DNA of 64,000 nt from Nematostella vectensis. Taxonomy: Eukaryota. The stretch spans positions 1,817,027 through 1,881,026 of the forward strand of contig NC_064047.1 in the NCBI RefSeq assembly GCF_932526225.1, written 5' to 3'. A program made the position numbers and the translations under genes. This document shows positions 10,221 to 30,955 of this stretch, piece by piece; the stretch's first letter is position 1, and the number at the start of each line of letters is the position of its first letter. Under the pieces are notes generated by a model. It searched no databases and was not told the origin of the DNA. It saw nothing but the letters and a program-made list of their open reading frames with translations.

Positions 10221-10226
10221 TCTGAC

Positions 10227-10619: not shown

Positions 10620-11115
10620 CCTACTTCCTCTTCCTGCATGTCACGTCACGTGATAGTAACCTCCTTTTTTGGGCGGTCACGTCACACAGTACTTACCTCC
10701 TCTCCTCCATTTCCGCCAGGTGATGTATACCCTCTCTCCACCATTTGACGTCACGTGATGATTACCTTTTCTTCCGGTAAGTGATGTCACGTGATTTTTA
10801 CCTTCTCCCTCTGAAGGTGACGTCACGTGATGCTTACCTCTCCTTCCGGCATGAGACGTCACGTGATGCTTACCTCCTCCCTCTGAAGGTGACGCCACGT
10901 GATGCTTACCTCCTCTTCAGGCATGTGATTCTAAACTCTTCTTCAGGCATGAGACGTCACGTGATGCTTATCTTCACTTTCTTAATGTGACGTTACATGA
11001 TGCTCACCTCCTTTTCCGGTAAGTGGCGTCACGTGATTCCTACCTCTTCTTCCAGTATGCGGTGTCACGTGATTTTGACCTTCACCCTCTGCATGTGACG
11101 TCGCGTGATGCTCAC
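10620..11115. repeat. About 60-bp minisatellite (about 8 copies) whose unit is the ASCC3 exon-25 donor junction (minus strand GAGGAG|GTAAGCATCACGTGACGTC)
   Basis: Every unit carries an AG|GTAAGC consensus donor plus a CACGTG E-box and a TGACGTCA CRE-like palindrome. The array abuts the real donor at 11115/11116. Confidence 0.8.
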
Positions 11116-11379
11116 CTCCTCTTCAGGCATGTGCAGCCATTGCTTGGGGTCATCCTGGGCGGCCAGGAAGGCGATCAAGTCCAGGGCTGTTAGTCTGGTC
11201 TGTCTTCTGGACGAGACGAAGACGAGGGTGGGCTTGGTCGGAGAGTGAATCCGGATCGCCTCGAAAGTTGGCTTGTTCATAGTAGCCATACGAGGGCAGT
11301 AATGCTTGCCGGGAAATCCTGTGATGTGAACCTCAAGAGGAACAGGGCGAACTGAAGGTCGGAAGTTGAACATACCAGC
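11116..11379 (-). CDS. ASCC3: ASCC3 exon 25 ([88 protein letters not shown])
   Basis: The [16 protein letters not shown] motif is conserved. Acceptor tccccaag| and donor GAG|GTGAGC. Confidence 0.9.
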
Positions 11380-11939
11380 CTTGGGGACGAAATAAGGTGG
11401 ATAAGTGGATGTCACTGACTGACAGGCGTGAAATGCATGTTTGTATTCACATACAAATCTGTAAACAACATGTTACCAAGAGAACTTGATATGTTCAATG
11501 TGATAATCATAGCTACGCCACAAGGGATAGAGAGCACCACCATCTAGCTCTCCCCAAAACTCGAACTGAATTTTATAAAAAAAATCCCTGCAGGTTAATG
11601 GAGCCAAATTGTATAATATTTAGCCTGCAGGGGTGATCACTTCTAGGTCGCTTAGGTCGTTTAATTACCAAGCAAAAACAAAATAAAAAATAAAAATACT
11701 TTTCAAAGCATATTTTCAGGTTAGATTTAGGTGTTAATTTAAAAAAATTATGTTGTTTTTATATCTTTAAATTTTAAAATTGTAGCATATACACATTCTA
11801 TTTTCTTTTAAATTTTGTTTTCCAGGTCACCCATTAATATCAGCTTTGCTGAAGATATTTAACTGGAAAAATATTTGTAAATAATAAATACAGTCGTTGA
11901 TACCAGATAAGAAATCACTGAATACATCCAAGTACTAAC

Positions 11940-12097
11940 CGATCCGATCCCGAGCCAATCCGCCAGGTCCCGAGCATTAGCGAGTGCAGTCGACAGGCCA
12001 ACGACACGGACCTTCTTGTCGGTGTGTGAGGAGATGAAGTTAGTTCTTGATACGATCACCTCAAGGACAGGACCTCGCTCATCCCCCAGCAGGTGAA
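11940..12097 (-). CDS. ASCC3: ASCC3 exon 24 ([53 protein letters not shown])
   Basis: Second DEIH box and STALANA motif. Acceptor ctgttccag| and donor TCG|GTTAGT. Confidence 0.8.
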
Positions 12098-12419
12098 TCT
12101 GGAACAGACAGGTTTAATACTGGTTACAAACAGGTTTGACCAGCCCCAACCTCACCTCAACATTGTTGGCTTCAACAATCAAGTGATTAGGCTAATTTGT
12201 GAGCTGCGACAGCTGCGTGGTACGGGCTTATAAAACAAGGGGTAGACCTGAGACAGCTACGTGGTACAAGGGGTAAAGCTGGTGACTTGATGTTTGTTGT
12301 TTTAGGAAAAGCACCAAGCCACTCCCTTCTTCCCCAATCTCACAGCATCGAACTGCATCAGGTGAATAATCATGTCTTCATTTTCCTACTCAAACCAGTC
12401 CACATACAAAGTCCATAGG

Positions 12420-12746
12420 GTCGACCACAAAGATAACTAGTATGAGATCTGCCAGCTCTGACTGACGCTCAGCCCAACAAACCAGTTGCATACTAGTTTT
12501 ACAGGTTAAAGAATCTACCTCTTTAATAATAACCAGATTGACTTGTTTGACATAGCTAAGCGTCTGCCAGCTCTGACTGATCCCAGCCCGACAAGCCAGT
12601 TGCATACTAGTTTTACATGTTTAAATATCTACTTCGTCAATAGTGAGCAGATTGAATTGTTTGACATAGCTACGCGTCTGCCAGCTCTGACTGATCCCAG
12701 CCCGACAAACAAATTGCATACTAGTTTTACAGTTTTAAGTATCTAC
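12420..12746. repeat. 120-bp tandem pseudo-copies (about 3 copies) of the 3' end of ASCC3 exon 23 plus its donor (…SWQTRSYVKQVNLLIIDE|GTAGAT)
   Basis: The minus-strand copies read SWQTLSYVKQFNLLTIDE|GTAGAT and ...IIKE|GTAGAT. Confidence 0.8.
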
Positions 12747-12900
12747 CTCGTCAATAATAAGCAGATTGACTTGTTTGACGTAGCTACGCGTCTGCCAGCT
12801 TCGACTGATGCCGTCCCACTTCTCCGGTGTCGTCACGATGAGGTCAGCCTGGCTAATGGAACGCGAGTCTGGTGTGACGTCACCCGTCAGTTCTATCACC
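12747..12900 (-). CDS. ASCC3: ASCC3 exon 23 ([52 protein letters not shown])
   Basis: Acceptor ccgttgccag| and donor GAG|GTAGAT. The downstream intron carries 2-3 pseudo-copies of this exon's 3' end plus donor. Confidence 0.85.
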
Positions 12901-13067
12901 CTGGCAACGGAATTATCTCATTATCCCATGATAAGGTTATTGCTTGCAGCGTACTCGGGAAGCAATTAAATGTAATTGTCCATTTCTTGGATGCAGTTTT
13001 TGTGCGTTAAACTGAAGAAAAATGGTATATAAGAAAACAAATCTCAGTTCTGGAATAAAAAACGTAC

Positions 13068-13153
13068 CTTTTGCCTAGCTTTCGTCCAAATCGCACTTTC
13101 CAGTCATCCATGCGCTCCCTCACGAGGGCCTTCAGAGGCGCAATGTAAACAGC
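13068..13153 (-). CDS. ASCC3: ASCC3 exon 22 (AVYIAPLKALVRERMDDWKVRFGRKLGK-)
   Basis: Acceptor ttttacag| and donor AG|GTACGT. Confidence 0.85.
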
Positions 13154-13439
13154 CTGTAAAAGGACAAAACAATTCATCTGACCTTTGATTCTTTAAAATA
13201 AAACCTCCCACATGATATGCTACCCAAAGGCCGGTTCCTAGATGGCAGGTTAGCCTTAACACACGGATAAATCGGCTATCCCGACATTTAATTGTACAAA
13301 AAGCGCATCCATCCCTGACTTAGCGTTAGCATGCTTTCTAGGAATCCGGCCCAGTACTTCTAGTGCCTCGGTCATTACTCGGCATAGAAGTAATTTGAGA
13401 TGTGCCTCGTTATTATGAGGGCATGACTGGGTACTGGGT

Positions 13440-14095
13440 TCGGGAGTGACTCGATACTATTCGGGTGTGACTCGATACTATTCGGGAGTGACTCGATACA
13501 ATTCGGGAGTGACTCGGTACAATTCGGGAGTGACTCGGTACAATTCGGGAGTGACTTGGTACTATTTGGGAGTGACACGGTACAATTCGGGAGTGACTCG
13601 ATACAATTCGGGAGTGACTCGTTACAATTCGGGAGTGTATCGGTACGATTTGGGAGTGACTAGGTACAATTCGGGAGTGACTCGGTACAATCCGGTAGTG
13701 ACTCGTTACAATTTGGGAAGTGACTAGGTACTATTCGGGAGTGACTCGGTACAATTCGGGAGTGACTCGATACAATTCGGCAGTGAATAAGTACAATTCT
13801 GGAGTGACTAGACACAATTCGGCAGTGAATAAGTACAATTCAGGAGTGACTCGTTACAATTCGGGGAGTGACTCGTTACAATTCGGGGAGTGACTAGGTA
13901 CAATTCGGGGAGTGACTCGGTACTATTCGAGAGTAACTCGAGTTCGTATTATTTGGGAGTGACACGGTATTATTCCGGAGTGACTTGGTACTATTCGGCA
14001 GTGACCCGGTACTATTCGGCAGTGACTCGGTACTATTCGGCAGTGACTCGGTACTATTCGGCAGTGACCCGGTACCATTCGTGTGCATTTAACTG
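13440..14095. repeat. 21-30-bp minisatellite (GGGAGTGACTCGGTACAATTC)n, more than 20 copies, starting just 3' of the exon-21 donor
   Basis: Direct reading. The unit does not contain the junction. Confidence 0.8.
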
Positions 14096-14106
14096 TTTAT
14101 GCATAC

Positions 14107-14229
14107 CTTTGCACCAGGATACTTGTCGAACAACCTGAATATAGCAAGCTCGGCGATGATGGTCTTGCCTGAGCCGGTGGGCGCCCCTAGCAGCACATTG
14201 TGGTCAGAGTTGTACACGGTGTGGAAAAC
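14107..14229 (-). CDS. ASCC3: ASCC3 exon 21: second cassette Walker A ([41 protein letters not shown])
   Basis: The [10 protein letters not shown]-loop is present. Acceptor cctttag| and donor AAG|GTATGC. Confidence 0.9.
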
Positions 14230-14399
14230 CTAAAGGAATAGTGTATATATGGTAAATTTCAACTGCGTCATTATAAATGCCAATTTGGACCTTAGCAACA
14301 ATGACGAAAACGTGGACGAAGACGGCAGAAAACAATGAAACGGGATTATGAATAGCAGCAGGTAAAAAGGCGTTCTGATAAATTTCAGTTGATGCTGTA

Positions 14400-15154
14400 T
14401 TGCGTGATTTCAAGTTGTGTCGCGTGATGTCACGGCCGTCTTACGTGGCCATACGTATCTGTACGAGGATTGGGTGCGTGGCTAGCTTTGTTGCGTGACG
14501 CAATGGCGTTGTATTGCGTTATTCCAAGCAATGTTGCGTGACGTCACAATGCTGTATTACGCAACCATATGTTGCGTGACGCCATGGTGCTGTATTGCGT
14601 GATTTCAATTAATGTTGCGTGACGTCACGGTATAGTATGGAATCACGGGTGGCCCTCTCAACCCTGAATTTCACTTGTTGGACGTATGTGAGCTTACTAG
14701 AAGCTCGTGTTCCTCAGTTCCAAGATGGGTCATTATTAATACATTAGGATTTTAAATGTGAAGCGCTTAGAACATGGTTGATATAAGCGCTACATAAATG
14801 TCAATTGAATTAATTAATTTAATTATTACGCGACCATACAGTGCCTGTATCTGTACGGGGTTATGTTGCGTGACGCCATGGTGCTGTATTGCGATGATTT
14901 TTAGTAGTGTTGCGTGACGTCACGGTGCAGTATTGCGTGACAATACAGTACCTGCATCTGCACGGGGTAGTGTGCGTGACGCCACGGTGTAATGTTTGAA
15001 TTCAAGTAGTGTTGTGTGACGTCACGGTGTAGTATTACGTGACAATACAGTACCTGTATCTGCACGGGGTTGTGTTGCGTGACCTAATGTTGCAGCATCG
15101 CGTGATTTCAAGTAGCATTGCGTGACATCACGGTGTAGTATTACGTGACCATAC
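14400..15154. repeat. 60/120-bp minisatellite (about 6 copies) built from the ASCC3 exon-20 donor junction (minus strand AACCCCGTGCAGATACAG|GTACTGTATTGTCACG, i.e. …NPVQTQ|GT)
   Basis: Each unit repeats the last 18 nt of the exon plus a GTA donor and a TGACGTCA motif. The array abuts the real donor at 15154/15155. Confidence 0.8.
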
Positions 15155-15421
15155 CTGTGTCTGCACAGGGTTGAAGTGCGTAAACTTGTAGAGCAGCTCG
15201 TAGCTGACATTGTGTAGCGCGCTGATGGGCAAGGGCTGTAGGTCTAGTAGCTCAGTGTGCGGTGGATGTCTCTCCGGGAGGATCAAGTGCTGGAAGGAGA
15301 TAGCGCACACAGTCTCCGCCCCAAGCCACCGGTCAGACACTGCGTGTACGTAGTACTGAGGGGGGAGGGGTTCGAAGATAGGGATGGTGAATACGAGACT
15401 CTGGGGCTCCTCTGATAAGAC
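15155..15421 (-). CDS. ASCC3: ASCC3 exon 20 ([89 protein letters not shown])
   Basis: Near-identical to ASCC3 residues around SDRWLGAE...[14 protein letters not shown]. Acceptor ccttgtcag| and donor CAG|GTATGG. Confidence 0.9.
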
Positions 15422-16136
15422 CTGACAAGGAAATAAAAAAGCGTATAAGGAAAGACAATGACATGCGGTGGCACACAACAATGGGGATACAATGCGTCAC
15501 GTACATCTTGGCCTTTTATCCCCCATCTTATCTCCGCCAAATCAAGGCGTATAAAATCTGACTTATCTAGAATGAGACCGATTGCGCCCTGGAAACCAAA
15601 GAAGGTTTTCAGCCCAAGGCTAATAAAATCTGCTTGACTATCTCTGAAATTAAATTAACCGTACTGGAAAAAACTCCATTTCACTGCTAAAGCATCAAAT
15701 AATAAATGTGAATTAAATTTCCATCATCATTCCAGATCATTTTAACGAAGCTGCCTACAGTTTTCAAGTAGCTATAGCGCTCATGTTTAAAGGGTCACAG
15801 TTTGCGCAAAGCTTGGAAGATTAAGTCCAATTTGTCAAGTGAAGGATTGAATTTTCGAAAATATGTGAAAGGTTGTTATTTGAGTTACCACAGCTGCCAA
15901 GAAATGGATAAAATTCTTTCCTAACCATACCCCTTTGACAAAATTAAGACGTCTCCACATATTTAAAACAACGGTGTTACGCCAGTCGAATCCAGATCCC
16001 CTGTTTACCAAGTCCCGAGTCCGTGTTTATCGAATCCAGATCCCATGTTTACAAAATCTCGAGTCCATGTTCACCGAATCCCGAGTCCATGTTTACCGAA
16101 TCCATATCCATCATTTACCAAATAGCCGCCGCTTAC

Positions 16137-16387
16137 CTGCTTTTTCTGCAGTAACAGGTACTCGGAATGATAGATGTGAGAGTTCTCCGGGTCCTCGACC
16201 CAGATCCACCACGGCTCACTGCTGCCATGAGCCCGGTCATTCCACTCGAACTCAGCGGTAATCGTAAGGCGCACGCGCAGAACTGTTCGTGTGATTGGCT
16301 GAATGCTCGCTGCTATGGAAATGGCGGGAAAACGATTGACGCAGCTCTTAACGGTATGCCCCATACGCACGTGGTGGACCAGGTGAC
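16137..16387 (-). CDS. ASCC3: ASCC3 exon 19 (GHLVHHVRMGHTVKSCVNRFPAISIAASIQPITRTVLRVRLTITAEFEWNDRAHGSSEPWWIWVEDPENSHIYHSEYLLLQKKQ)
   Basis: The EPWWIWVEDP motif is present. Acceptor gatctcag| and donor CAG|GTAAGC. Confidence 0.85.
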
Positions 16388-17560
16388 CTGAGATCATAAT
16401 GAAAGGGTGTATAATGTGAGATACGAACACATAATCAAGGGGTGTATAATGTGAGATACGAACACATAATCAAGGGGTGTATAATGTGAGATACGAACAC
16501 ATAATCAAGGGGTGTATAATGTGAGATACGAACACATAATCAAGGGGTGTATAATGTGAGATACGAACACATAATCAAGGGGTGTATAGTGTGAGATACG
16601 AACACATAATCAAGGGGTGTATAATGTGAGATACGAACACATAATCAAGGGGTGTATAGTGTGAGATACGAACACATAATCAAGGGGTGTATAGTGTGAG
16701 ATACGAACACATAATCAAGGGGTGTATGATGTGAGATACGAACACATAATCAAGGGGTGTATAATGTGAGATACGAACACATAATCAAGGGGTGTATAAT
16801 GTGAGATACGAACACATAATCAAGGGGTGTATAGTGTGAGATACGAACACATAATCAAGGGGTGTATAATGTGAGATACGAACACATAATCAAGGGGTGT
16901 ATAGTGTGAGATACGAACACATACTCAAGGAGTGTATAGTGTGAGATACGAACACATAATCAAGGGGTGTATGATGTGAGATACGAACACATAATCAAGG
17001 GGTGTATAATGTGAGATACGAACACATAATCAAGGGGTGTATAATGTGAGACACGAACACATAATCAAGGGGTGTATAGTGTGAGATACGAACACATAAT
17101 CAAGGGGTGTATAATGTGAGATACGAACACATAATCAAGGGGTGTATAGTGTGAGATACGAACACATAATCAAGGGGTGTATAATGTGAGATACGAACAC
17201 ATAATCAAGGGGTGTATAGTGTGAGATACGAACACATAATCAAGGGGTGTATAGTGTGAGATACGAACACATAATCAAGGGGTGTATGATGTGAGATACG
17301 AACACATAATCAAGGGGTGTATAATGTGAGACACGAACACATAATCAAGGGGTGTATAATGTGAGATACGAACACATAATCAAGGGGTGTATGATGTGAG
17401 ATACGAACACATAATCAAGGGGTGTATAATGTGAGATACGAACCCAAAATTAAAGGTTGTATAATGTGAGATACGAACACATAATCAAGGGGTGTAGAGT
17501 GTGAGATACGAACACATGATCAGGGATGTATGGTGTGAGATAGGAACTTAAGATCAGGGG
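16388..17560. repeat. 40-bp minisatellite (GGGGTGTATAATGTGAGATACGAACACATAATCAA), about 29 copies, filling about 85% of the intron between exons 19 and 18
   Basis: Direct reading. The unit resembles the last 20 nt of that intron (cattatgatctcag). Confidence 0.85.
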
Positions 17561-17738
17561 TGAATAGTGTCGAATACCGTCGGCGGAGGGGGCGGGAGAG
17601 AAGAGATAATAGGGAGAAGACGTCTTCTCACTCCTTTCCCTTCTCTCCACCCCCCCCCCCCCCCTTCCACCGCCCTTTTCAACCGGGACGCCCTGGGTTT
17701 CAGAGGATGAAGACATGTGGAGTCTGCTATTTTCCTAC

Positions 17739-17964
17739 CTATTTCCTCAGGCACCATATCTCGTAGTTTTTCTAATGAAGCTTTACGTCCTTCTAGTTTA
17801 TTGAGAATCTCGGGGCTTAAGGTGGTGAACTGTTTCAGCGGATGCTCCTCTGGCCATAGCCTCTTTTCGATGCATTTACTCAGCGTCAGTAGCCTGTTTG
17901 CTAACACAGGGTACCCACGCCTCAGAGCAATCTCGAATAATCCTCGAATCAGACGAGCGCCGTT
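17739..17964 (-). CDS. ASCC3: ASCC3 exon 18 (NGARLIRGLFEIALRRGYPVLANRLLTLSKCIEKRLWPEEHPLKQFTTLSPEILNKLEGRKASLEKLRDMVPEEIG)
   Basis: Acceptor ttacctccag| and donor G|GTAGGA; leaves in phase 1. Confidence 0.8.
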
Positions 17965-18636
17965 CTGGAGGTAAAGAGAGCAGTATTTAATAATAACATT
18001 TATAATTTATACCGCGCAATTTTTTTAAATTGAAATGTCAAAATATTTCAATATGTTCAAATGCACAAGGAGAGGTACAGAGCTTGAAAAGGGCAGCTTC
18101 ATGGTAAGAGCTTTGCAATAGCTCTCCGGCCCTGACACAAAGAATTTCAGCCAAATTCTAATATTGAGCCTTTGATATTATGTGGGAGACCTGAATTTAA
18201 AAATTCAAAGGAAATGACCACAAACTGTTAATAAACATAGTTTTCAATAAATTATTGCATATTATTTTACGAAGGCATTGACAGCTTAAAGTTTAAATGC
18301 TTGTAGACAATTAAAAGCCTAAAATAAACAGTGACCCAAGACATGCGCAGTACCTGACGCTGCCCCTTTAAAAGGTTTTTTATTTGATTTGCGTAAGAAG
18401 TTGTTGCCTTGTTTTAAATATTTGAAACAAATAATTCCACACATCTTCCCACAACTCTTAGCGGTGCGCGCGTGGAACTGAGGATAATTTTGACGCCTCG
18501 TTTTCACGCGCACGTCGCAAAGAGTTGTGTGGAGAGGTGGGGAGGGTGAACATAACTAAATCCTGCGAAAGCACAGGTAAGTACCTTTATCCATGAAGTT
18601 TAAGATAATCAGGTTATTTTGTGTTACGGTTTTCAC

Positions 18637-18816
18637 CTGCGCGACGTAGCCGAGGTCGGATACGAGGGAGAATGACTCTACCCTGCCACGGCTTATGTAG
18701 GTCTGCAGAAGAATGTTCACTTTGCCATAAGTATTCTCCACCCCTCCCTTGACGGGGATGACGACACAGTCCTCGTGGAGATGCTCCTCCAGCTCCGACA
18801 GCTCGTCCTCGCGCAC
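18637..18816 (-). CDS. ASCC3: ASCC3 exon 17, first Sec63 unit (VREDELSELEEHLHEDCVVIPVKGGVENTYGKVNILLQTYISRGRVESFSLVSDLGYVAQ)
   Basis: The GGVEN..GK.NILLQTYISRG motif is present. Acceptor tgacag| and donor CAG|GTGAAA. Confidence 0.85.
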
Positions 18817-19151
18817 CTGTCACGCAACACATGGTAAGGTCATGCTATACCCAAACGATCAGGTCACACAACAAAGCTACTGTTCAGTTGCGCAGTTCTT
18901 AAAATAGTCAGGGGGCAGATATAGGAAAATTCAGGTTTCGCTCAACCCTCACCACAGAAAACATATAAAGCTGAATCTTGTAGAACGAAACCCTTGAACA
19001 ATGCTAGCAAATATATAGTGTCAATAAAAAGATATGTGTTTTATTGCGTCACTCGTTGTCCTGCTTATTAACGAGTACGAAGTAGAAAACATAAATACGA
19101 TAAGGAAAGGGAACATTTTCCTTATAACGTTTCCTGATAAGTGACGTAAAT

Positions 19152-19437
19152 CAGGGGCGGATACAGGGTGGTGGATTGGGTGGATATCCACCCCCCCCTT
19201 TTTGAGTAGAAAAATTGAAAAATCACTTTGTTTAAAAAAATATATGTGCGATGGACAGGAGGAACTGTCCATGTTCCTTCGCCTGCTTGACTTTGCTGTC
19301 GCGACATATCCAATTCAGCGTAAAGTATTGTTAGATCCATGTGACCTACCATGTGAAGTACCACAGAATCAGTTATAAGCCGTCTAGCCGGCCATTATCC
19401 ACCCCCTATTTTGAAATTCTGGATCCACCCCTGTAAA
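19152..19437. mobile_element. Small MITE-like element with imperfect TIRs CAGGGG(C/T)GGAT..
   Basis: Left end aaatCAGGGGCGGATAC, right end GGATCCACCCCTGtaaatt, with an internal GGTGGATTGGGTGGATATCCACCCC palindrome. Confidence 0.35.
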
Positions 19438-19484
19438 TTAATATGTCACAGACCCAGATATCAGGCACATGTCTCAGGCCCTAC

Positions 19485-19571
19485 CTTAATTTGCTCAAAT
19501 TCGCCAGCGTGTGACAACATCTCCAGGATTTCTGGCATTGCAAGGTCTGGACGGAACCTCTCGTTGAATTC
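19485..19571 (-). CDS. ASCC3: ASCC3 exon 16 (EFNERFRPDLAMPEILEMLSHAGEFEQIK)
   Basis: Acceptor tgtgtag| and donor AAG|GTAGGG. Confidence 0.6.
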
Positions 19572-22400: not shown

Positions 22401-22670
22401 ATAGAAAGATGATCGGATGTACTGATTGAGTAGGGGTACCATACCAACGAGAGTTGAAGGGAGAAGGAAATAAATAGGGATAATTCGAGTAAAGTACAGG
22501 AGGTGATAAACGAGGGAGAATGACACAGCAAGCACTGCGACAAAGTAAAAACGCTCAGACAATTCAAAGAGTGAACTTGGCGACATGGAAAAACATAGCG
22601 TGGGCAGGTGGTAGAGCAAAATAAAACCGAGAAGAAACATGACACACGGCACAAAGATTCCGAATATTAC

Positions 22671-22895
22671 CTCTGCATTAAGACTGTCAGTTAAGCTAGC
22701 GGTCAGCGTACTCTCGATTGGAGCCTGCCTGGTCAGCAGTGATAAGTAATGTGACAGTCTGTCATGCGCAGTGATGATTGTCCCTTCACCGAACTTGTCG
22801 AACTGCGGCCGACCAGCACGTCCAAAGATCTGTAGAACATCCAGGATGCCAAGATCCACGAACGAGCCCTTCTTTGCATCGTACACCTCTGTACC
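22671..22895 (-). CDS. ASCC3: ASCC3 exon 13 ([75 protein letters not shown])
   Basis: The [12 protein letters not shown] arginine finger is present. Acceptor ttttacag| and donor GAG|GTAATA. Confidence 0.85.
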
Positions 22896-23789
22896 CTGTA
22901 AAAAGATAGAAAACTCATTTGATACACCCTTTTTTATAAGACTTTATAAAGAACGCCCAGCCTAAGATTTCATCAAATTCTCAGAACATGCTTAGAACAT
23001 GTCGAGACAGTAACAAAATAGTATTTTGTTAGCATGTGGCTGTTATTGTTGTTATTGATCATGTGTGTAATTTTCTTTCTAGAATAATAGATATAAAATA
23101 CCAACAAATGATACACATCGATTATGTCAAATTTAGTCGTTATTAAGACTTTTCTGACCAACCCTCGACACTCTTAATGCATGCTTAACATCCTGGGCAT
23201 TCCCTGATTTTTTAGTGGGTGGACTGGGTTAGTCAATTCCACACACTTATTGCAGCAATTATTATTTTTCTTTTTCTAAAAAATCAATCAACCACATCAT
23301 AATCTTGGCAAGTTAGGCCTTTTCGGCAGAAAGCATTTTTAATTAAAAGAAAAGACTAAAGATTTGTCTGTACCAAAATAAATAATCTGCTAGTTCATTA
23401 GTTTATTAAATTTAAATTTTCTTCTTTTCGTTAACTTATCACAGGCGTAAAAGGCGCTTTAAAAACCAAATTGGGATTTATATTACAAGCGCAATATTGC
23501 GCAGATATACACTGCGAAAAACAGTAGTAATGAGATATAAATAATCAGAGGTGTCGAGTGATTGATCTAGAAAAAGTTTTGATCAAATGACTTAACAAAA
23601 CTCTGTTTTGATTAAACCTGTCGATCTTATTTCTCGAGTATCAGGCGGATGGTGAAAAATACATTTACTTAGCCTTTTCAGTTTCCGTGTTAGTTATCAA
23701 GAGTGGAAAGGGAATATTATTCGCTGTGTTCCTGAGAAAGACCTTTTAAAGACCCTCTGGTATTCGGTACACCAAGCAAAAATAATGGT

Positions 23790-24560
23790 AAATAAATAAG
23801 TCCACTCCCTCGCAGCCTACAAAAACCACTCGAACTATACAAGGCGTCGAGGGTATACTTATTGTGATCGTTAACTCGCTGGCGCTCGCTGATTTCCTGA
23901 GCAAGACTTTTCGCGTCAAGAAGTCGACTTATCTTCTCGTCATCCTGGCCGTGGCGGATCTGATGGTCGGGCAAAGCCTTACCATGGACTCCCTCTCAAC
24001 ATTAACAAAAGGGGTTGGCGCCGAGGAAGCCCGTATTTCATTCTATGTTATGAAGGTTTCGGTGAACGCGTCGCTGTTCTCGTCCACCTTCATAGCAATA
24101 GAAAGATCCTACGCCGTCCTGGTACCCTTTAGACATCGCCTTCTTACAAGCAAGCCGTACGGCGTAGCGATAACCTTGGTCTGGGTCCTGGCAATCATAA
24201 CCGAATTGTATAATGTACTTTAAAGGTCATTCCATCAAATCTTGACAGAGAAGGGTAAAATACTCTCCACAGTCAAAACAGGCCTGGCCCTCATTTCGTT
24301 AAAAGTAAAGTTCAGTTGCTATCTCGCTACTTGGTGCAGGGTGAAGTTTACTGTAAATCCAACAGCAGGGAGAGACAGCTCGTGAAATACAAACAAACTA
24401 ACGCAAACTTTATTCGTTACAACATTGGTGTCGTTTCTGCTGTTCTTTCCGTTGGCAATTGGTATTTTGTAATATGAATGGTAGAGGTTAAGGTGTCCCT
24501 TCTCGTAAACTTAGCGTGTCTTATGTACTTTAACTCCGCCGTTAACGTTCTGGTGTACTC
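23790..24560 (+). pseudogene. Intronless class-A (rhodopsin-like) GPCR pseudogene fragment inside an ASCC3 intron
   Basis: TM2 LAVADLMVG, TM3 IAIERSYAVLVPFRHR (an E/DRY-type motif), TM6 FLLFFPLAIGIL and TM7 NSAVNVLVY (NPxxY with P replaced by V) are recognisable. TM6 and TM7 lie in different frames separated by in-frame stops. No TM5 was found, and the N-terminus is truncated by a stop. Confidence 0.55.
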
Positions 24561-24989
24561 CCTGCGAATGGAAGAGTTCAAGAGGGAGGCGAAGAGGATC
24601 CTTAGGTGTGCTACCCTTAGCAAAGATTGCAAGTTTCATTCCTGCCGTCTGCAACAAGTGAAGAATACAATCACGAACACACTAGACAGGACAAACCTGT
24701 ACGACAAACGACGAAGAAAGGTGAAACCTCGACAGCCTTGGATACTGTTCCATCGACTAGACAAGACAACCTGACATTTACTGCATACAACGATTGGTAA
24801 GTCAACTTGAAAACAATGACTTTTTCATCCTCGGGAACCCAGGGCGTCGAGGCCACAGGCGCATGAGCGTGTCGGAACATGGCCGGCAGAGGGGTAGGGG
24901 ATAGTAGGCGGGAGAGAAGCGTTATCGCGCCTTCTTTCGCTGCCCTCAACGTCCTGGGTACCCGAGGATGTGACTTTTTCACTCAACTG

Positions 24990-25570
24990 TGTGCAAGACA
25001 CTTTCTGGCTTTAGCAGACCCAAGACAGTGGCGAGACCTTGAAGAGCGTGAGGAATGTGCCATCGACTAACCATGACAACTCTTGTTATTTACGATATGA
25101 CAAACAACGAAGGAGGTGTAACCTCGAACACCATGAGGAATGTGCCATCGACTAACCATGACAACTCTTGTAATTTACGATATGACAAACAACAAAGGAA
25201 GGTGTAACCTCGATCACCATGAGGAATGTGCCATCGACTAACAATGACAACTCTTGTTATTTACGATATGACAAACAGCGAAGGAAGGTGTAACCTCGAA
25301 CACCATGAGGAATGTGCCATCGACTAACCATGACAACTCCTGTAAGTCACGATACGACAAACAACGAAGGAAGGTGGAACCTCGAACACCATGAGGAATG
25401 TGCCATCGACTAACCATGACAACTCTTGTAATTTACGATACGACAAACAACGAAGGAAGGTGTAACCTCGAACACCATGAGGAATGTGCCATCGACTAAC
25501 CATGACAACTCTTGTAAGTCACGATACGACAAACAACGAAGGAAGGTGGAACCTCGAAAACCATGAATAC
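24990..25570. repeat. About 60-bp minisatellite (about 9 copies) derived from the 3' end of the adjacent GPCR pseudogene
   Basis: The unit gaatgtgccatcgactaaccatgacaactcttgt...acgacaaacaacgaaggaaggtgtaacctcga resembles 24700-24780 (…gacaaacgacgaagaaaggtgaaacctcgac…ccatcgactagacaagacaacct). Confidence 0.6.
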
Positions 25571-26279
25571 TGTACGGTAGATTGAACAAGGCAACCCATA
25601 TCACCTACAGCAAAAAAGAAAAAAATGGTGGTGGCTCGTATCTTGAAAAATATAGAAGTAATGTGATATCAACTACCAAAGGCAGTAAAACCTACATACA
25701 TACATACACAGAGGATAATCAACTAGGCAGATAGAGAAAATCCCTGCCGTTTACAGCGAGCAACAAAGGAAGAAGAAACCTCGAAGCAGTGATGGGTGTT
25801 TTGTTATCAGGTAAATAGACTAGAGGCACAACCGAACTGAATAAATGCTGCACATTAGCTCTACTACAGCTGGTTACAGAAGTCAGGGGTGGCAAGTACT
25901 CGATGATTTTCATAAAACTAGTCGAACAGGGTGAATGTAATTAACCCCTTATTATTATTCCCAGAATTTTGCCACACTACCTGAGGTCTGATTAAAACAG
26001 ATTTTAAGGCGATTTGCGCAAAATCAGAATCAGAATCGCTTGCTTTTGTCACTATGACATAATGACAGCGGTGAAAAGGTTTTCACTTCGACACACACGT
26101 CAAACCGTTATGAAATATTTTATGAACTAGTATAATAAACAGGGTATTATATCCTGAAAGCAACGGCATTAGACTGTAGTAAGTAATGAAAGAAATCAAA
26201 AAAACAATAGATCTTGTTATCGCTTTTGTTTCAAAGTTCTTTTTGATTTTTTTGAAGAAAGCGGCTCTGATCCACGGGT

Positions 26280-27071
26280 ATGTTGCCAACCCCCATCTCG
26301 CCTTCCGCTTCCTCTTTCCTGCTTCATTCCTCCACTTATCCCTCAGCTATACAGGTCCAGGTACTTGACGGCAGGTTGACGCCCAAAGCCAGACTGCCCC
26401 CCTCTTCCACCCTTCCACTCCCTTTGTCTCCCTCCAACCCCTTACACCCATCCATAGCAGACCAGTGCCTTGATGATGTCAGTGTATAAGACGACACTTC
26501 AACCCAGAGAGACGTTCAAACCCTCCCCCCTCCCTCACATCCCTTCCAAGCGTTTCACCTCTCCTGCCTAGAGGAAGGTTAAGAGTCTAAAGAGTCGATA
26601 CCTTTGATGACAGCATGTAAAAAGAGAGAGATGCTTCAAGCCAGAGACACTAACCTATCCCCCCACCCACCCATCCCTCGCCAATGTTTTATCTCCCAAC
26701 TGTACTTTGTGCGTCAGCGAAGAGGCCCCAACAAGACCCCAACTTCTCCATCTCTTATTTCCTTTTTTTTGTACTTAAGATCAGTACCTTAATAATGACG
26801 GTGAAGTGGGTAAGACGGGGCTGACGCTTCAAGCCTGATAGACGGCCACAGCTCCCCCCGTACCATCCCATCAGCATTTCACCTTCCTCATCTTTCCAAA
26901 CATAAAAGTCTGTGAACTGGGAGTCTGTGAACTGGGAGATCGACGCCCTAACATGACATTCCGTCCCTGCCCCCATTTTTCTCCCTTCCTCTCTCTTCCA
27001 ACAAAAACCTTCCTCCCTCTCTTCCTGGCTCCACTATCCCCACCCCTCCCTCACATGTATAGGATCAGTAC
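26280..27071. repeat. Degenerate, irregular (145-270 bp) tandem copies of the ASCC3 exon-12 donor junction (minus strand ..CGTCATTATCAAG|GTACTGATC), each preceded by a CT/proline-codon-rich stretch
   Basis: Copies at about 26470 (CATCAAG|GCACTG), 26615 (CATCAAAG|GTATCG), 26805 (CATTATTAAG|GTACTGATC) and the real donor at 27071/72. Confidence 0.5.
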
Positions 27072-27263
27072 CTTGATAATGACGGCGTGTGCAGGAAGGT
27101 TAACGCCCCAAGCAAGGGTCGCGGTACACACAAGCACCTTGATGAGTCCCTTAGCGAAGTACTGCTCGACCATCGTGCGATCCGTGCGAAGCATGCCAGC
27201 GTGATGAGTACCGAAGCCGTCAGGAAACAAGTCCCGCAGTTGCTTGTTACGAGACCTCATGAC
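27072..27263 (-). CDS. ASCC3: ASCC3 exon 12, helicase C ([64 protein letters not shown])
   Basis: The HHAGM and [13 protein letters not shown] motifs (helicase motifs V/VI) are present. Donor AAG|GTACTG. Confidence 0.85.
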
Positions 27264-27642
27264 CTGTCAATCAAGCATGCCAATCACAAGCCAAGTAATA
27301 ACTTCCCCAACACTAGCCAAACACATGACAATCAGCAACTTGCACTAGCAGATCACCTGACTTTTTGGGTTGTAACAAAGCGCGGGCTCAGGCTTTTAGT
27401 GGCAAAATACAACAATAAAAAGCAACTTATTTAGCGCTAACGTATAAGCCAGAGAGTTTATTTGTCAGAAAGGGTTTATTTTTATTTAAAGATTTTATTT
27501 TATCGTCGTTCTCTGGCGTGAAGGGCAAAGTCATTTCGTCGTTTTTTTGGGTTGAATTTGTCACTCATGAGGTAACGTGATTAGTTAGCGCAAGTCGCGG
27601 CGATGCTCTGTTTTAGCGCGATAAAATTAAGTGATACAGTAC

Positions 27643-27777
27643 CTGCTTGAGGGCGCTACCGTAGTCTGGGGCCTGCTCTGCCCTGAAGAGCATGGAGTCC
27701 CCCTGATTGGAAGCCATCTCTCTTAACGTCATGGCCGTCCGCACGGTGGCATTTCTAGCATGAACAAACACCATGAC
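27643..27777 (-). CDS. ASCC3: ASCC3 exon 11 (VMVFVHARNATVRTAMTLREMASNQGDSMLFRAEQAPDYGSALKQ)
   Basis: The VMVFVHARNATVRTA motif is conserved. Acceptor tctcttcag| and donor CAG|GTACTG. Confidence 0.85.
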
Positions 27778-27960
27778 CTGAAGAGACAAATAAATAATTA
27801 TAGAACGAACAAACACCATGACCTGAAGAGACAAATAATTCTAGCATGAACAAACACCCTGACCTGAAGAGACAAATAAATAATTATAGAACGAACAAAC
27901 ACCATGACCTGAAGAGACAAATAAATAATTATAGAACGAACAAACACAAACCTGAAAAGA
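27778..27960. repeat. 45-bp tandem repeat (about 4 copies) duplicating the ASCC3 exon-11 acceptor (minus strand ctataattatttatttgtctcttcag|GTCATGGTGTTTGTTC)
   Basis: Direct reading. Each unit has a full polypyrimidine-AG acceptor plus the first 16 exon nt. Confidence 0.85.
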
Positions 27961-28125
27961 TAAATGACTACGTAGATACCATTTTCGTAATCATCACTAC
28001 AATAATTATCATTATGATCACCGTCATCAAAATCGTTTTCTTGTATTCAGATCAGTATGTTTCCGGTATTTTCAGAACAATCACCGTCATGATGATCATC
28101 ATCGACGTGATCATGAACATTACCG

Positions 28126-28129
<4 letters not shown>

Positions 28130-28163
<34 letters not shown>

Positions 28164-28422
28164 CATTATCATTATCATTATCATTATCATTATCATTATC
28201 ATTATCATTATCATTATCATTATCATTATCATTATCATTATCATTATCATTATCATTATCATTATCATTATCATTATCATTATCATTATCATTATCATTA
28301 TCATTATCATTATCATTATCATTATCATTATCATTATCATTATCATTATCATTATCATTATCATTATCATTATCATTATCATTATCATTATCATTATCAT
28401 TATCATTATCATTATCATTATC

Positions 28423-28460
<38 letters not shown>
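28130..28460. repeat. (ATTATC)n hexanucleotide microsatellite, about 55 units, flanked by ATC/ATG-rich low-complexity sequence (27960-28530)
   Basis: Direct reading. Confidence 0.95.
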
Positions 28461-28469
<9 letters not shown>

Positions 28470-28559
28470 CGTCCTTGCTATCGTAATCATTATTGTTAAC
28501 ATTATTATCAACATTGTCGCCATCTTCAAGCGCAGATCAATTCCACCTGTTTACGTAAA

Positions 28560-28930
28560 CAGGTCAAAAGGTTTAGATTTATAACATTAAGAATGAGCTG
28601 CAAGTCTTGATTCTGTTAGTTAAGGCGACAGTGTTCAGCCTAAAAGAGGTCAGAAATTTTCGTAAACAAGTCAGAACTTTTAGTAAACAGCTCAGAATTT
28701 TTCGTAACAGCTCAAAAGTTTTCGTAACAGAACTTTTCGTAAACAGGACAGAACTTTTCGTAACAGGACAGAATTTTTTGTAAACAGGTCAGAATTTTTC
28801 GTAATAAGGACAGACCTTTTCGTAACAGGTCAGAGTTTTTCGTAACAGGTCAGAATTGTTCGTAAACAGGTCAGACATTTTCGTAAACATGTCAGAACTT
28901 TTCATAAACAGTTCAGAAGTTTTCGTTAAT
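28560..28930. repeat. About 30-bp minisatellite (TTTTCGTAAACAGGTCAGAA), about 11 copies
   Basis: Direct reading. It is not junction-derived. Confidence 0.8.
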
Positions 28931-28994
28931 ATGTCTGAATTTTTCCTGGACCCGCGCCGTCATTTTCTTGGAACTGTAGAATTGCCTGCTATAC

Positions 28995-29243
28995 CTGGTA
29001 GCCCTTCTCCACGTTTTCTGTGACCTTCTCATAGCAGATCTTATCCATCTCGTGCGCTTGCTGGAACGGGTTCAGCCCTTTCACCCCGATGAACGTCTGT
29101 CCGAGGGGGACTGGGCGAAAACGTGAGTCGAAGGCGAAAAGACCTTTGTACGGGTCCACCCTTAGGAAGTGTGCGACGTCCAGATAGTTAGGGAGAGTAG
29201 CAGACAGTCCGACAATGCGAATCATGGACTGCGAGGATAACAC
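28995..29243 (-). CDS. ASCC3: ASCC3 exon 10 (VLSSQSMIRIVGLSATLPNYLDVAHFLRVDPYKGLFAFDSRFRPVPLGQTFIGVKGLNPFQQAHEMDKICYEKVTENVEKGYQ)
   Basis: Helicase motif III (SAT) is present. Acceptor attgtag| and donor CAG|GTATAG. Confidence 0.85.
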
Positions 29244-30400
29244 CTACAATACATATTAAGATAAATTCCAACAGATGGTTAGGAAGAGTGGCAGATAGGC
29301 CGACAATGCAAATCCTAGACTGTGAGGACAAAACCTACAATACATATTAAGATAAATTCCAACAGACGGTTAGGGAGAGTGGCAGATAGGCCGACAATGC
29401 AAATCCTAGACTGTGAGGACAAAACCTACAATACATATTAAGATAAATTCCAACAGATGGTTAGGGAGAGTGGCAGATAGGCCGACAATGCAAATCCTAG
29501 ACTGTGAGGACAAAACCTACAATACATATTAAGATAAATTCCAACAGATGGTTAGGGAGAGTGGCAGATAGGCCGACAATGCAAATCCTAGACTGTGAGG
29601 ACAAAACCTACAATACATATTAAGATAAATTCCAACAGATGGTTAGGGAGAGTGGCAGATAGGCCGACAATGCAAATCCTAGACTGTGAGGACAAAACCT
29701 ACAATACATATTAAGATAAATTCCAACAGATGGTTAGGGAGAGTGGCAGATAGGCCGACAATGCAAATCCTAGACTGTGAGGACAAAACCTACAATACAT
29801 ATTAAGATAAATTCCAACAGATGGTTAGGGACAGTGGCAGATAGGCCGACAATGCAAATCCTAGACTGTGAGGACAAAACCTACAATACATATTAAGATA
29901 AATTCCAACAGATGGTTAGGGAGAGTGGCAGATAGGCCGACAATGCAAATCCTAGACTGTGAGGACAAAACCTACAATACATATTAAGATAAATTCCAAC
30001 AGATGGTTAGGGAGAGTGGCAGATAGGCCGACAATGCAAATCCTAGACTGTGAGGACAAAACCTACAATACATATTAAGATAAATTCCAACAGATGGTTA
30101 GGGAGAGTGGCAGATAGGCCGACAATGCAAATCCTAGACTGTGAGGACAAAACCTACAATACATATTAAGATAAATTCCAACAGATGGTTAGGGAGAGTG
30201 GCAGATAGGCCGACAATGCAAATCCTAGACTGTGAGGACAAAACCTACAATACATATTAAGATAAATTCCAACAGATGGTTAGGGACAGTGGCAGATAGG
30301 CCGACAATGCAAATCCTAGACTGTGAGGACAAAACCTACAATACATATTAAGATAAATTCCAACAGATGGTTAGGGAGAGTGGCAGATGGCCGACAAGGC
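29244..30400. repeat. 90-bp minisatellite (about 13 copies) built from the ASCC3 exon-10 acceptor junction (minus strand tatgtattgtag|GTTTTGTCCTCACAGTCTAGGATTTGCATTGTCGGCCTATCTGCCACTCTCCCTAACCATCTG)
   Basis: Unit = the last about 27 nt of the intron including the acceptor, plus about 63 nt homologous to the exon start (real: GTGTTATCCTCGCAGTCCATGATTCGCATTGTCGGACTGTCTGCTACTCTCCCTAACTATCTG). Confidence 0.85.
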
Positions 30401-30599
30401 AAATATTAAACATCCTCTGTCTTAGCCATTTTATCATCCTAGCAAAGCACCACTTTTATCGGCTAAATAAGGGGAATTAATGTCATATTTTAGATTGAAT
30501 TTGTTAAATAAAGAATCAAACTTTGTTTTTAGATGGCCTCTAGATGTCTTACTAACACATGAGAGATTAGCGAACAGCAAAACAAATAATGCAACGTCC

Positions 30600-30790
30600 T
30601 TGCTTAAAGCCTCAGGGATACTCGGGTTTTGCTCGGAAATGCCGATGATTTCCTGTTGTAACGTCCTCGCTATAAAAAGCCTCAGGGCTTTTCGGGATTT
30701 ACTCGGAAATGCCGATGATTACCTGTCGTAACGTCCTCGCTAAAAAGTCTCGGGACTAATCAGGGTTTACTCGGAAATGGCGATGATTAC
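30600..30790. repeat. 60-bp tandem copies (about 3 copies) of the ASCC3 exon-9 donor junction (minus strand GCGAGGACATTACGACAG|GTAATCATCGCCATTTCCGAG)
   Basis: Direct reading. One copy has its donor mutated to GAAATC. Confidence 0.8.
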
Positions 30791-30955
30791 CTGTCGTAAT
30801 GTCCTCGCCACAAGGCACTCAATGACGGAGCCACGGTCATCATGCAGCAAATGAACCTCGTCAATGATGAGTAGCTTGACAAGCTGAGCCAGCGCTACAT
30901 CTCCAGTGGACTTACGTGTGACAACATCCCACTTTTCCGGGGTAGTGACAAGCAT
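30791..30955 (-). CDS. ASCC3: ASCC3 exon 9, containing the DEVH box ([55 protein letters not shown])
   Basis: The DEVH motif and a TTPEKWD motif are present. Acceptor tgtcgcag| and donor CAG|GTAATC. Confidence 0.85.

What the first reader, a model, noticed from the sequence alone, without database searches (positions are those of the whole stretch)
10620..30800. Systematic tandem arrays of exon-intron junctions in the ASCC3 introns, ladders of cryptic splice sites
Nine of 34 ASCC3 exons are bordered by a minisatellite whose repeat unit straddles the splice junction: 15-65 nt of exon end or start plus the GT donor or polypyrimidine-AG acceptor and adjacent intron. Five are donor-side arrays (exons ending at 11116, 12747, 15155, 20883, 30791) and three are acceptor-side (exons starting at 21938, 27777, 29243). 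A degenerate older-looking series lies at 26280-27071. Copy number ranges from 3 to about 13 and unit length from 45 to 120 bp. Units are always in exon orientation, so every copy is a plausible cryptic donor or acceptor. Arrays are 80-97% identical internally but unrelated to each other. This argues for a locus-independent mechanism acting at splice junctions, such as slippage or repair initiated at junctions, or junction-primed reverse transcription of splicing intermediates. Insertion of a common element seems unlikely. To my knowledge this is not a general described feature of metazoan genes. I recall a single minisatellite in the amphioxus Adh locus that may span a splice site, but I am not certain of this. 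Consequences could include alternative splice-site choice, in-frame pseudo-exon inclusion and rapid indel polymorphism next to constitutive exons.
Basis: seen in the sequence. Interest (0 to 1): 0.92.

Follow-up and report, generated by a model that had tools for sequence, protein, structure and literature searches.

The report
Splice-junction minisatellites ("mirages") in ASCC3
Nine exon-intron junctions of the ASCC3 gene, and two in a neighbouring T-box gene, are tandemly duplicated into intronic minisatellites; this is real and far above chance, but it is the "mirage" phenomenon already described in amphioxus genes.

Summary
Nine junctions carry a tandem array whose unit is 15-66 nt of exon plus the GT donor or the polypyrimidine-AG acceptor and adjacent intron. 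One of the nine is a degenerate series.

Two more such arrays lie in an unrelated T-box gene on the other strand, so the process is not locus-specific.

Against a null of randomly placed founder duplications, 11 of 26 arrays span a junction where 2.3 are expected (P about 1e-6).

The phenomenon is not undescribed. Minisatellites spanning exon-intron boundaries were named "mirages" in amphioxus Adh3 and were later reported in troponin C, globin and PGBD5 genes. The human F7 intron-7 VNTR is a mechanistic precedent.

No unit begins or ends at a junction, which argues against reverse transcription of splicing intermediates. DNA-level tandem duplication and unequal exchange fit best. The arrays are probably tolerated because the exon-proximal site is chosen.

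Why junctions are over-represented remains unexplained. The species could not be identified.

The parts
3954..38921 (-). ASCC3 orthologue, 34 coding exons, 33 GT-AG introns (28,380 bp of intron, 6,588 bp of CDS).
   Evidence: Spliced alignment. Core exons reproduced with five other homologues. Best PDB hit is human ASCC3.
10640..11133 (-). Donor-side junction array at exon 25 (donor 11116). The 36-bp unit, with a 72-bp higher-order period, is 16 nt of exon end plus GTRAGCATCACGTGACGTCA. About 13 copies.
   Evidence: Pseudo-donors score up to 10.9 against 8.0 for the authentic site.
12448..12812 (-). Donor-side junction array at exon 23 (donor 12747). The 114-bp unit is 66 nt of exon end (...LLIIDE) plus GTAGAT and 48 nt of intron. 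3.2 copies, 88% identical to the authentic copy.
14824..15173 (-). Donor-side junction array at exon 20 (donor 15155). The 102-bp unit is about 19 nt of exon end plus GTA and 83 nt of intron. About 3.3 copies. It is related to the 43-bp array at 14489-14624 in the same intron.
20343..20940 (-). Donor-side junction array at exon 15 (donor 20883). The 64-bp unit is 58 nt of exon end plus only GTAAGG. 9.3 copies; 6 of the 8 pseudo-donors keep the exact authentic 9-mer GAGGTAAGG and the other two are near-consensus.
21896..22380 (-). Acceptor-side junction array at exon 14 (acceptor 21938). The 142-bp unit is 99 nt of intron 3' end plus 43 nt of exon start. 3.4 copies; the exon part is 98-100% identical between copies.
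26340..27115 (-). Degenerate donor-side series at exon 12 (donor 27072). Four decayed copies of about 40 nt of exon end plus GTACTG, at irregular spacing of 284, 186, 133 and 106 bp.
   Evidence: Read directly. Pseudo-donors at 26788 (8.2) and 26602 (7.7). Too diverged for the BLAST probe.
27753..27965 (-). Acceptor-side junction array at exon 11 (acceptor 27777). The 45-bp unit is 20 nt of polypyrimidine tract and CAG plus 25 nt of exon start. About 5 copies.
29181..30404 (-). Acceptor-side junction array at exon 10 (acceptor 29243). The 91-bp unit is 28 nt of intron 3' end plus 63 nt of exon start. 13.5 copies. Intronic copies are about 99% identical to each other but only 83-84% identical to the real exon part, while the 28-nt intron part is 100% identical.
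30593..30815 (-). Donor-side junction array at exon 9 (donor 30791). The 68-bp unit is 24 nt of exon end plus GTAATC and 44 nt of intron. 3.2 copies. It shares its intron with the 29243 acceptor array.
61339..62151 (+). Acceptor-side junction array in a second gene, a T-box gene on the plus strand. The 50-bp unit is 31 nt of intron 3' end (…gttttcatgtttgcag) plus the first 19 nt of the exon encoding [15 protein letters not shown] (exon 62133-62249). 16 copies.
63740..63965 (+). Degenerate donor-side triplication in the T-box gene. The exon end ...[10 protein letters not shown]|GTAAC (exon 63623-63787) recurs at about 63848-63885 and about 63921-63950.
   Evidence: alignment A1, 74% mean column identity.
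16395..17547 (-). A 35-bp x 33 intronic array that runs to within 8 nt of acceptor 16387 but contains no exon sequence. It abuts the junction without spanning it.

Best explanation
These are 'mirage'-type minisatellites.

Origin (inferred): a DNA-level tandem duplication, by replication slippage or unequal exchange, copied a 36-150-bp segment that happened to straddle an exon-intron junction. Unequal exchange and gene conversion then expanded and homogenised the copies.

Arrangement (shown): the copy contiguous with the exon body remains the functional junction. It is the first copy for donor arrays and the last copy for acceptor arrays. All other copies lie in the intron and evolve as non-coding DNA.

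Tolerance (inferred from the human F7 experiments and from exon definition): splice-site choice favours the exon-proximal site, so the mRNA is unchanged although most copies keep competent GT or AG signals.

Excess (shown in this window, cause not established): junction-spanning arrays are about five times more frequent than random founder duplications predict.
For: Anatomy: each unit is contiguous exon plus splice site plus intron, with the authentic copy at the array edge.

Local origin: units match only their own exon and are not found elsewhere in the window. Arrays are mutually unrelated.

Neutral evolution of pseudo-copies: differences from the real exon are 2 synonymous to 7 non-synonymous at 20883, and 7 to 3 at 29243. 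Pooled, this is about what is expected for a constrained exon set against an unconstrained copy.

Concerted evolution: the 29243 copies are about 99% identical to each other but about 84% identical to the exon. The 28-nt intron part is 28/28 identical. This is the boundary-exclusion pattern reported for globin mirages.

No junction breakpoint: the exon fraction of the unit ranges from 0.19 to 0.91 and is consistent with uniform.

Precedents: amphioxus mirages in Adh3, TnC, globins and PGBD5 are spliced normally and differ in copy number between haplotypes. Pseudo-donors of the human F7 IVS7 VNTR are functional but silent because the most upstream site is used.

Excess: 9 of 22 ASCC3 arrays span a junction against 1.96 expected (P = 1.7e-5; conservative binomial 0.005). 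With the T-box gene it is 11 of 26 against 2.26 expected (P = 1.1e-6).
Against: No RNA data were available, so silence of the pseudo-sites is inferred, not shown.

Simple random duplication with purging of exon-internal events does not explain the five-fold excess at junctions. It also does not explain why non-spanning arrays lie nearer to intron ends than random placement predicts (Fisher combined p = 0.005). Something further, either mutational bias or retention, is needed.

The species could not be identified, so membership in the amphioxus phenomenon rests on anatomy alone.

Confidence: 0.8

Rival explanations
1. A junction-biased mutational process. Splice junctions or their immediate surroundings would be hot spots for the founding duplication. 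Possible causes are replication-fork stalling at RNA polymerase II or spliceosome pause sites, or aborted recombination where conserved exons meet highly polymorphic introns. This adds to the best explanation rather than excluding it.
For: There is a five-fold excess of junction-spanning arrays over a random-founder null. Non-spanning arrays also crowd intron ends. Both donors and acceptors, and two unrelated genes on opposite strands, are affected. Junction arrays are not older-looking than intronic ones (median identity 87% against 81%, p = 0.09), which does not favour pure long-term retention.
Against: The junction sits anywhere within the unit, consistent with a uniform distribution. A break exactly at the junction is therefore not indicated. 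The data come from one window only. No motif is shared between arrays. Protection of junction-adjacent sequence from neutral deletions could produce part of the excess.
Confidence: 0.3
2. Reverse transcription or repair templated by splicing intermediates, or slippage initiated at the junction itself.
For: Only the association with junctions.
Against: All units contain uninterrupted exon-intron sequence. None starts or ends at a 5' splice site, branch point or 3' splice site. The exon part is 16-66 nt and the intron part 6-99 nt, with no regularity. Copies are strictly tandem and local, with no poly(A) and no dispersed copies.
Confidence: 0.04
3. Selected function. The repeated pseudo-splice sites would recruit U1 or U2AF, or act as intronic enhancers or decoys that tune splicing or expression. 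Selection would then keep them at junctions.
For: Pseudo-sites are mostly intact and as strong as the authentic sites. In the old 11116 array, 12 of 13 copies keep GT despite about 30% divergence. That unit also carries a conserved CACGTGACGTCA motif (E-box plus CRE). The F7 VNTR pseudo-sites are functional when tested.
Against: In the 20883 array the 9-mer donor motif is no better conserved than the rest of the unit (about 6% mismatch in both, read). Homogenisation alone explains intact motifs in young arrays. The arrays share no sequence. The literature reports no effect on mRNA.
Confidence: 0.1
4. Chance placement of abundant minisatellites, or an assembly artefact.
For: Tandem repeats fill 30% of ASCC3 intron sequence (8,451 of 28,380 bp) and introns are short (median about 700 bp), so some overlap is expected. 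The copy number of the near-identical 29243 array could be mis-assembled.
Against: About 2.3 junction-spanning arrays are expected and 11 are observed. Exon-end probes hit the adjacent intron far more often than any other intron. Most arrays have 3-35% divergence between copies, which collapsed or duplicated reads cannot create. Resequencing confirmed comparable arrays in lancelet PGBD5.
Confidence: 0.04

Closest known systems
Amphioxus 'mirage' minisatellites (Adh3: Canestro et al. 2002, Nucleic Acids Res 30:2871; also troponin C, globins BflGb6/BflGb9 and PGBD5)
   Same: Tandem arrays whose unit spans an exon-intron boundary, on either the 5' or the 3' side of an exon. Units are tens to about 160 bp and 81-100% identical. 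Many copies keep AG/GT signals. Evolution is concerted, with the boundary copy excluded from homogenisation.
   Different: Published cases are one or two arrays per gene. Here there are nine in one gene and eleven in 64 kb, with a quantified excess over a random null. The species of this window is unknown. Copy-number polymorphism, somatic instability and normal splicing were shown for the published cases but could not be tested here. The 2002 paper itself was not available to read.
Human F7 intron 7 37-bp VNTR (PMC1557585)
   Same: The first repeat unit spans the exon 7 donor, so the authentic 5' splice site is followed by identical pseudo-sites. The pseudo-sites are functional but silent because the most upstream site is selected. 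This is the experimental model for how donor-side arrays are tolerated.
   Different: It is a single locus in a mammal and only on the donor side. No comparable experiment exists for acceptor-side arrays.
Intron gain by tandem duplication of an AGGT-containing segment (Rogers model; Hellsten et al. 2011, PMC3265369)
   Same: A short intragenic tandem duplication carrying splice signals is spliced out and leaves the protein unchanged. Ebner et al. proposed that mirages could seed new introns in this way.
   Different: In this window the arrays extend pre-existing, conserved introns. No new intron position is created.
Intronic minisatellites linked to alternative splicing in C. elegans (CeRep25B; PMC4039745)
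   Same: Tandem repeats in introns next to regulated exons that carry splicing-regulatory motifs.
   Different: CeRep25B is one dispersed repeat family that is not derived from the neighbouring exon and does not contain the junction.

Membership tests
Mirage minisatellites (junction-spanning tandem repeats, as defined in amphioxus) | Head-to-tail tandem array of minisatellite-sized units. | tested here: met
   TRF gives periods of 36-142 bp and 3-16 copies.
Mirage minisatellites (junction-spanning tandem repeats, as defined in amphioxus) | The repeat unit contains exon sequence, the splice site and adjacent intron of a real exon-intron boundary. | tested here: met
   Gene model and register prints. 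Eleven junctions in two genes.
Mirage minisatellites (junction-spanning tandem repeats, as defined in amphioxus) | Both 5' and 3' exon boundaries can be affected, and many but not all copies keep AG/GT. | tested here: met
   Seven donor-side and four acceptor-side arrays. Most pseudo-sites are intact and a few are mutated.
Mirage minisatellites (junction-spanning tandem repeats, as defined in amphioxus) | Normal mRNA splicing is not disturbed. | not testable with these tools
   No transcript data for this species. There is only indirect support: using the exon-proximal sites gives an intact ORF collinear with homologues.
Mirage minisatellites (junction-spanning tandem repeats, as defined in amphioxus) | Copy-number instability or polymorphism between haplotypes. 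| not testable with these tools
   No second assembly or reads were found.
Mirage minisatellites (junction-spanning tandem repeats, as defined in amphioxus) | Host is a cephalochordate. | tested here: inconclusive
   No near-identical protein in any collection. The best full-length ASCC3 match is 55% identical. Named matches (bivalve 84%, fish 77% on conserved parts) do not discriminate.
Retroposed or RT-derived copies of splicing intermediates | Copy boundaries at the 5' splice site, branch point or 3' splice site; spliced or lariat-derived structure; dispersed insertion. | tested here: not met
   Units are contiguous unspliced DNA and the junction position within the unit is consistent with uniform. 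Copies are only local and tandem.
Insertion of a common repetitive or transposable element | Shared sequence between arrays, or copies elsewhere. | tested here: not met
   All-against-all comparison of units finds no similarity except between two arrays in the same intron. No copies lie outside each array.
ASCC3 (Ski2-like dual-cassette helicase) | Closer to ASCC3 than to the paralogue SNRNP200/Brr2, with two helicase cassettes carrying Sec63 domains. | tested here: met
   Human ASCC3 (8alz_B) scores 2313 bits and yeast Slh1 scores 1570, against 1550 for SNRNP200. Full-length collinear alignment to ASCC3-like proteins of 2172-2190 aa.

The most novel reading that the evidence does not exclude
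In this genome, splice junctions may be preferred birthplaces or refuges of minisatellites. A junction-associated process, either mutational or retention-based, would generate or preserve tandem duplications within about 100 bp of exon-intron boundaries genome-wide. Examples of a mutational process are transcription- or splicing-coupled fork stalling, and recombination aborted at the boundary between a conserved exon and a polymorphic intron. Such a process would make junction ladders a systematic source of intron growth, splice-site sliding and new exons or introns. It has been noted anecdotally as 'mirages' but, as far as the searched literature shows, never quantified or explained.
Probability: 0.3. 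Interest if true: 0.7.

Novelty: new member of a known kind. Interest (0 to 1): 0.4.

Why it matters
The arrays are a practical hazard. Gene predictors can turn repeat copies into false exons, as happened for lancelet PGBD5. Copy number is also likely to be mis-assembled.

Biologically, each array is a natural ladder of competent but apparently unused splice sites. It gives a ready-made test of how the spliceosome chooses among identical sites.

The density seen here is eleven junctions in 64 kb, and tandem repeats make up about 30% of ASCC3 intron sequence. The excess over a random-duplication null is about five-fold. Together these suggest that an unexplained junction-associated process shapes introns in this lineage, with possible consequences for intron gain, intron sliding and alternative splicing. 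A genome-wide count would settle this, and it appears not to have been published in the literature I could search.

Tried and rejected
Species identification failed.
- Homology searches with ASCC3 exons, the poorly conserved exon 2 and the MMP exon gave no near-identical protein.
- The representative-library search gave at best 55% identity over the full length.
- Cluster names were uninformative.
- Loci fetched through homologues are distant: a compact protist- or fungus-like ASCC3 locus and an MMP exon at 72% DNA identity.
- The metagenome scan gave at most 78% protein identity.
- Rfam found nothing in the window.

The original mirage paper (PMC117041, doi 10.1093/nar/gkf386) is not held.

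I considered whether the CA-rich arrays at 47-51.6 kb are mirages of the neighbouring MMP gene. No adjoining exon could be found, so they are not counted.

The 18-bp array at 6329-6410 next to donor 6415, and a 26-nt exon-28 match at 8019-8044, are too weak to count.

I did not pursue microhomology at unit boundaries, because the arrays are too remodelled for founder breakpoints to be read.

A column-by-column test for selection on the splice motif is confounded by higher-order repeat structure and homogenisation, so I report it only qualitatively.

Full report
OBSERVATION

Tandem Repeats Finder lists 63 rows of tandem repeats in the window (overlapping rows describe the same array).

To place exons, I obtained full-length ASCC3-like proteins from the representative library. 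I aligned the best one (P0125, 2172 aa) to the minus strand with a spliced dynamic-programming aligner of my own. The result is 34 exons, all GT-AG, and after extension to the ATG and the stop codon an intact ORF of 2195 codons spanning 3954-38921.

The gene lies on the minus strand, so the low coordinate of each exon is its donor and the high coordinate its acceptor. Five other homologues reproduce all nine of these junctions. Disagreements are confined to the poorly conserved N- and C-terminal exons and to a few acceptor or exon-boundary choices elsewhere that involve none of the nine junctions. The protein is an ASCC3 orthologue. Human ASCC3 scores 2313 bits and yeast Slh1 1570, against 1550 for the paralogue SNRNP200.

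ANATOMY OF THE ARRAYS

Printing each array in register, with exon bases in capitals, shows that every unit contains exon sequence, the splice site and intron.

Donor side:
- 11116: 36-bp unit, about 13 copies, 16 nt of exon.
- 12747: 114 bp, 3.2 copies, 66 nt of exon.
- 15155: 102 bp, about 3.3 copies, 19 nt of exon.
- 20883: 64 bp, 9.3 copies, 58 nt of exon plus only gtaagg.
- 30791: 68 bp, 3.2 copies, 24 nt of exon.

Acceptor side:
- 21938: 142 bp, 3.4 copies, 43 nt of exon.
- 27777: 45 bp, about 5 copies, 25 nt of exon.
- 29243: 91 bp, 13.5 copies, 63 nt of exon.

Four decayed copies of the exon end plus GTACTG lie at irregular spacing.

Most pseudo-sites score as well as the authentic site on a weight matrix built from the gene's own 33 introns. 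The units are unrelated to one another, except for two arrays within one intron, and none occurs elsewhere in the window.

IS IT MORE THAN CHANCE?

Three tests bear on this.

First, 70-nt exon-end probes find a same-strand match in the adjacent intron for 8 of 66 junctions. Only 3 of 66 find any match in all other introns on both strands, a search space about 64 times larger.

Second, I built a generative null. A founder duplication of the observed unit length falls uniformly in the gene, exon-internal events are purged, and intronic and junction-spanning events are kept. Summing the per-array probabilities predicts 1.96 spanning arrays among the 22 in ASCC3, and 9 are observed (P = 1.7e-5). 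Giving every array the large-unit probability still yields P = 0.005.

Third, arrays that do not span a junction still lie closer to intron ends than random placement predicts (Fisher combined p = 0.005). One of them, 35 bp x 33 copies, runs to within 8 nt of acceptor 16387.

A SECOND GENE

While checking the rest of the window I found a T-box gene on the plus strand. Its exons encode ...[26 protein letters not shown]..., [13 protein letters not shown]...[11 protein letters not shown] and [12 protein letters not shown]...TAYQNQQ.

The 50-bp x 16 minisatellite at 61339-62151 is 31 nt of intron 3' end plus the first 19 nt of the RMFP exon. The end of the TAYQNQQ exon with its donor is triplicated in degenerate form at 63740-63965.

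The process is therefore not specific to ASCC3 or to one strand. Pooling both genes gives 11 spanning arrays of 26 against 2.26 expected (P = 1.1e-6).

WHAT IT IS

The literature search shows that this is a named phenomenon. Ebner et al. [quoted passage not shown] They cite Canestro et al. [quoted passage not shown] They also report units 81-100% identical, AG/GT signals in many copies, normal splicing, different copy numbers in two haplotypes, and concerted evolution that excludes the boundary copy.

Pavelitz et al. 2013 (PMC3902484) add troponin C and PGBD5. They show different copy numbers in two lancelet assemblies (2 against 7, and 3 against 6). They also report confirmation by resequencing, and a gene model that wrongly turned repeat copies into an exon.

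The human F7 intron 7 VNTR is a mammalian instance with experimental dissection. Its pseudo-donors are functional but silent because the most upstream site is chosen.

The window's arrays meet every anatomical criterion of mirages. Splicing behaviour, polymorphism and host taxon could not be tested.

HOW IT MOST LIKELY WORKS

Shown:
- Units are contiguous genomic exon plus intron.
- The exon share of the unit ranges from 0.19 to 0.91 and is consistent with a uniform distribution (KS p = 0.80). The junction is therefore a passenger inside the duplicated segment, not a breakpoint.
- Pseudo-exon parts accumulate non-synonymous changes as unconstrained DNA does. The counts are 2 synonymous to 7 non-synonymous at 20883, and 7 to 3 at 29243.
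- The 29243 copies are about 99% alike but about 84% like the real exon. The 28-nt intron part is 28/28 identical to the authentic junction. This fits homogenisation that stops where conversion into the exon would be deleterious.
- The 11116 array has a 72-bp higher-order period, which is typical of unequal exchange.

Inferred:
- The founder event was replication slippage or unequal exchange at the DNA level.
- Tolerance comes from exon-proximal site choice. The F7 data support this for donors. Exon definition would explain it for acceptors, but no experiment exists for the acceptor side.

None is seen.

WHAT REMAINS UNEXPLAINED

The five-fold excess at junctions has no established cause. Junction arrays are not visibly older than intronic ones (median identity 87% against 81%, p = 0.09), so simple long-term retention is not favoured. 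Protection of junction-adjacent DNA from neutral deletions could still contribute. A junction-associated mutational bias remains possible. So does selection for repeated U1 or U2AF sites. I rate these at 0.3 and 0.1.

Two caveats apply. The window was flagged because of this feature, and the statistics rest on two genes.

SPECIES

I could not identify the source organism. No collection holds a near-identical protein, and exact look-ups failed. GC content is 36-51% across 2-kb windows, mostly 36-46%. Short introns and extreme minisatellite density also characterise the window. These features are compatible with a cephalochordate (my own knowledge), but this is not shown.

VERDICT

It is wrong on novelty and unsupported on the RNA-intermediate mechanism.

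These are new members of a known kind. Interest is moderate (0.4). The phenomenon was described about two decades ago. Its density here and the quantified junction bias point to an open, directly testable question.

Noticed in passing
window 58900-64000 (+): A T-box gene, which looks Tbx15/18/22-like from my recollection of the motifs [13 protein letters not shown] and [10 protein letters not shown]. Exons end at 59047 and lie at 62133-62249, 62654-62810 and 63623-63787. Two of its seven junctions in the window carry junction-spanning arrays.
   Followed up: yes
window 16395-17547 (-): A 35-bp x 33 array (95% identity) fills most of the intron and runs to within 8 nt of acceptor 16387. Its last unit supplies the polypyrimidine tract and AG, but it contains no exon sequence.
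   Followed up: partly
ASCC3 introns, e.g. 8876-8927, 9881-10205, 13439-14081, 15987-16104: Arrays that do not span a junction still sit closer to intron ends than random placement predicts (Fisher combined p = 0.005). The 26-bp unit at 8876-8927 duplicates a branch-site-like ACTAAC plus pyrimidine tract just upstream of acceptor 8869. The 22-bp unit at 15987-16104 contains GGTAAAC.
   Followed up: partly
window 29181-30404 (-): In the 91-bp acceptor array the 28-nt intron part is identical in the authentic and all pseudo-copies. The 63-nt exon part differs at 10 positions (7 synonymous, 3 non-synonymous). Homogenisation seems to stop at the splice site.
   Followed up: partly
window 10640-11133 and 14390-15154 (-): The 36-bp donor array keeps CACGTGACGTCA (E-box overlapping a CRE) in nearly every copy. 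The arrays in the next-but-one array-bearing intron carry TGACGTCAC and TTGCGTGACGCAA motifs. These could be clustered transcription-factor or recombination-hotspot-like sites, or coincidence.
   Followed up: no
window 27777-27822 and 11080-11116 (-): Two ladders could give in-frame products without a stop codon. Using the pseudo-acceptor 45 nt upstream of exon 11 would add 15 residues. Using the pseudo-donor 36 nt after exon 25 would add 12 residues. There are no RNA data to test this.
   Followed up: no
window 23790-24775 (+), inside the 4.2-kb ASCC3 intron 12: A rhodopsin-type GPCR-like reading frame on the opposite strand, broken by stops and frameshifts. It is probably a nested pseudogene.
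   Followed up: partly
window 46014-46376 (+) and 47079-51585: A matrix-metalloproteinase catalytic exon ([11 protein letters not shown]). It is followed by about 4.5 kb of strongly C-skewed CA-rich minisatellites (28-, 69- and 44-bp units; GC skew down to -0.65). Their 44-bp unit carries an acceptor-like ctgttccttccacag, but no adjoining exon was found.
   Followed up: partly
window 62857-63601 (+): A compound (TGC)n/(TGG)n/(TGGCGA)n microsatellite of about 750 bp occupies almost the whole T-box intron between exons 62654-62810 and 63623-63787.
   Followed up: no
window 38921-39600: ASCC3 starts at 38921 on the minus strand. An acidic ORF begins about 39600 on the plus strand, which suggests a short bidirectional promoter region.
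   Followed up: no
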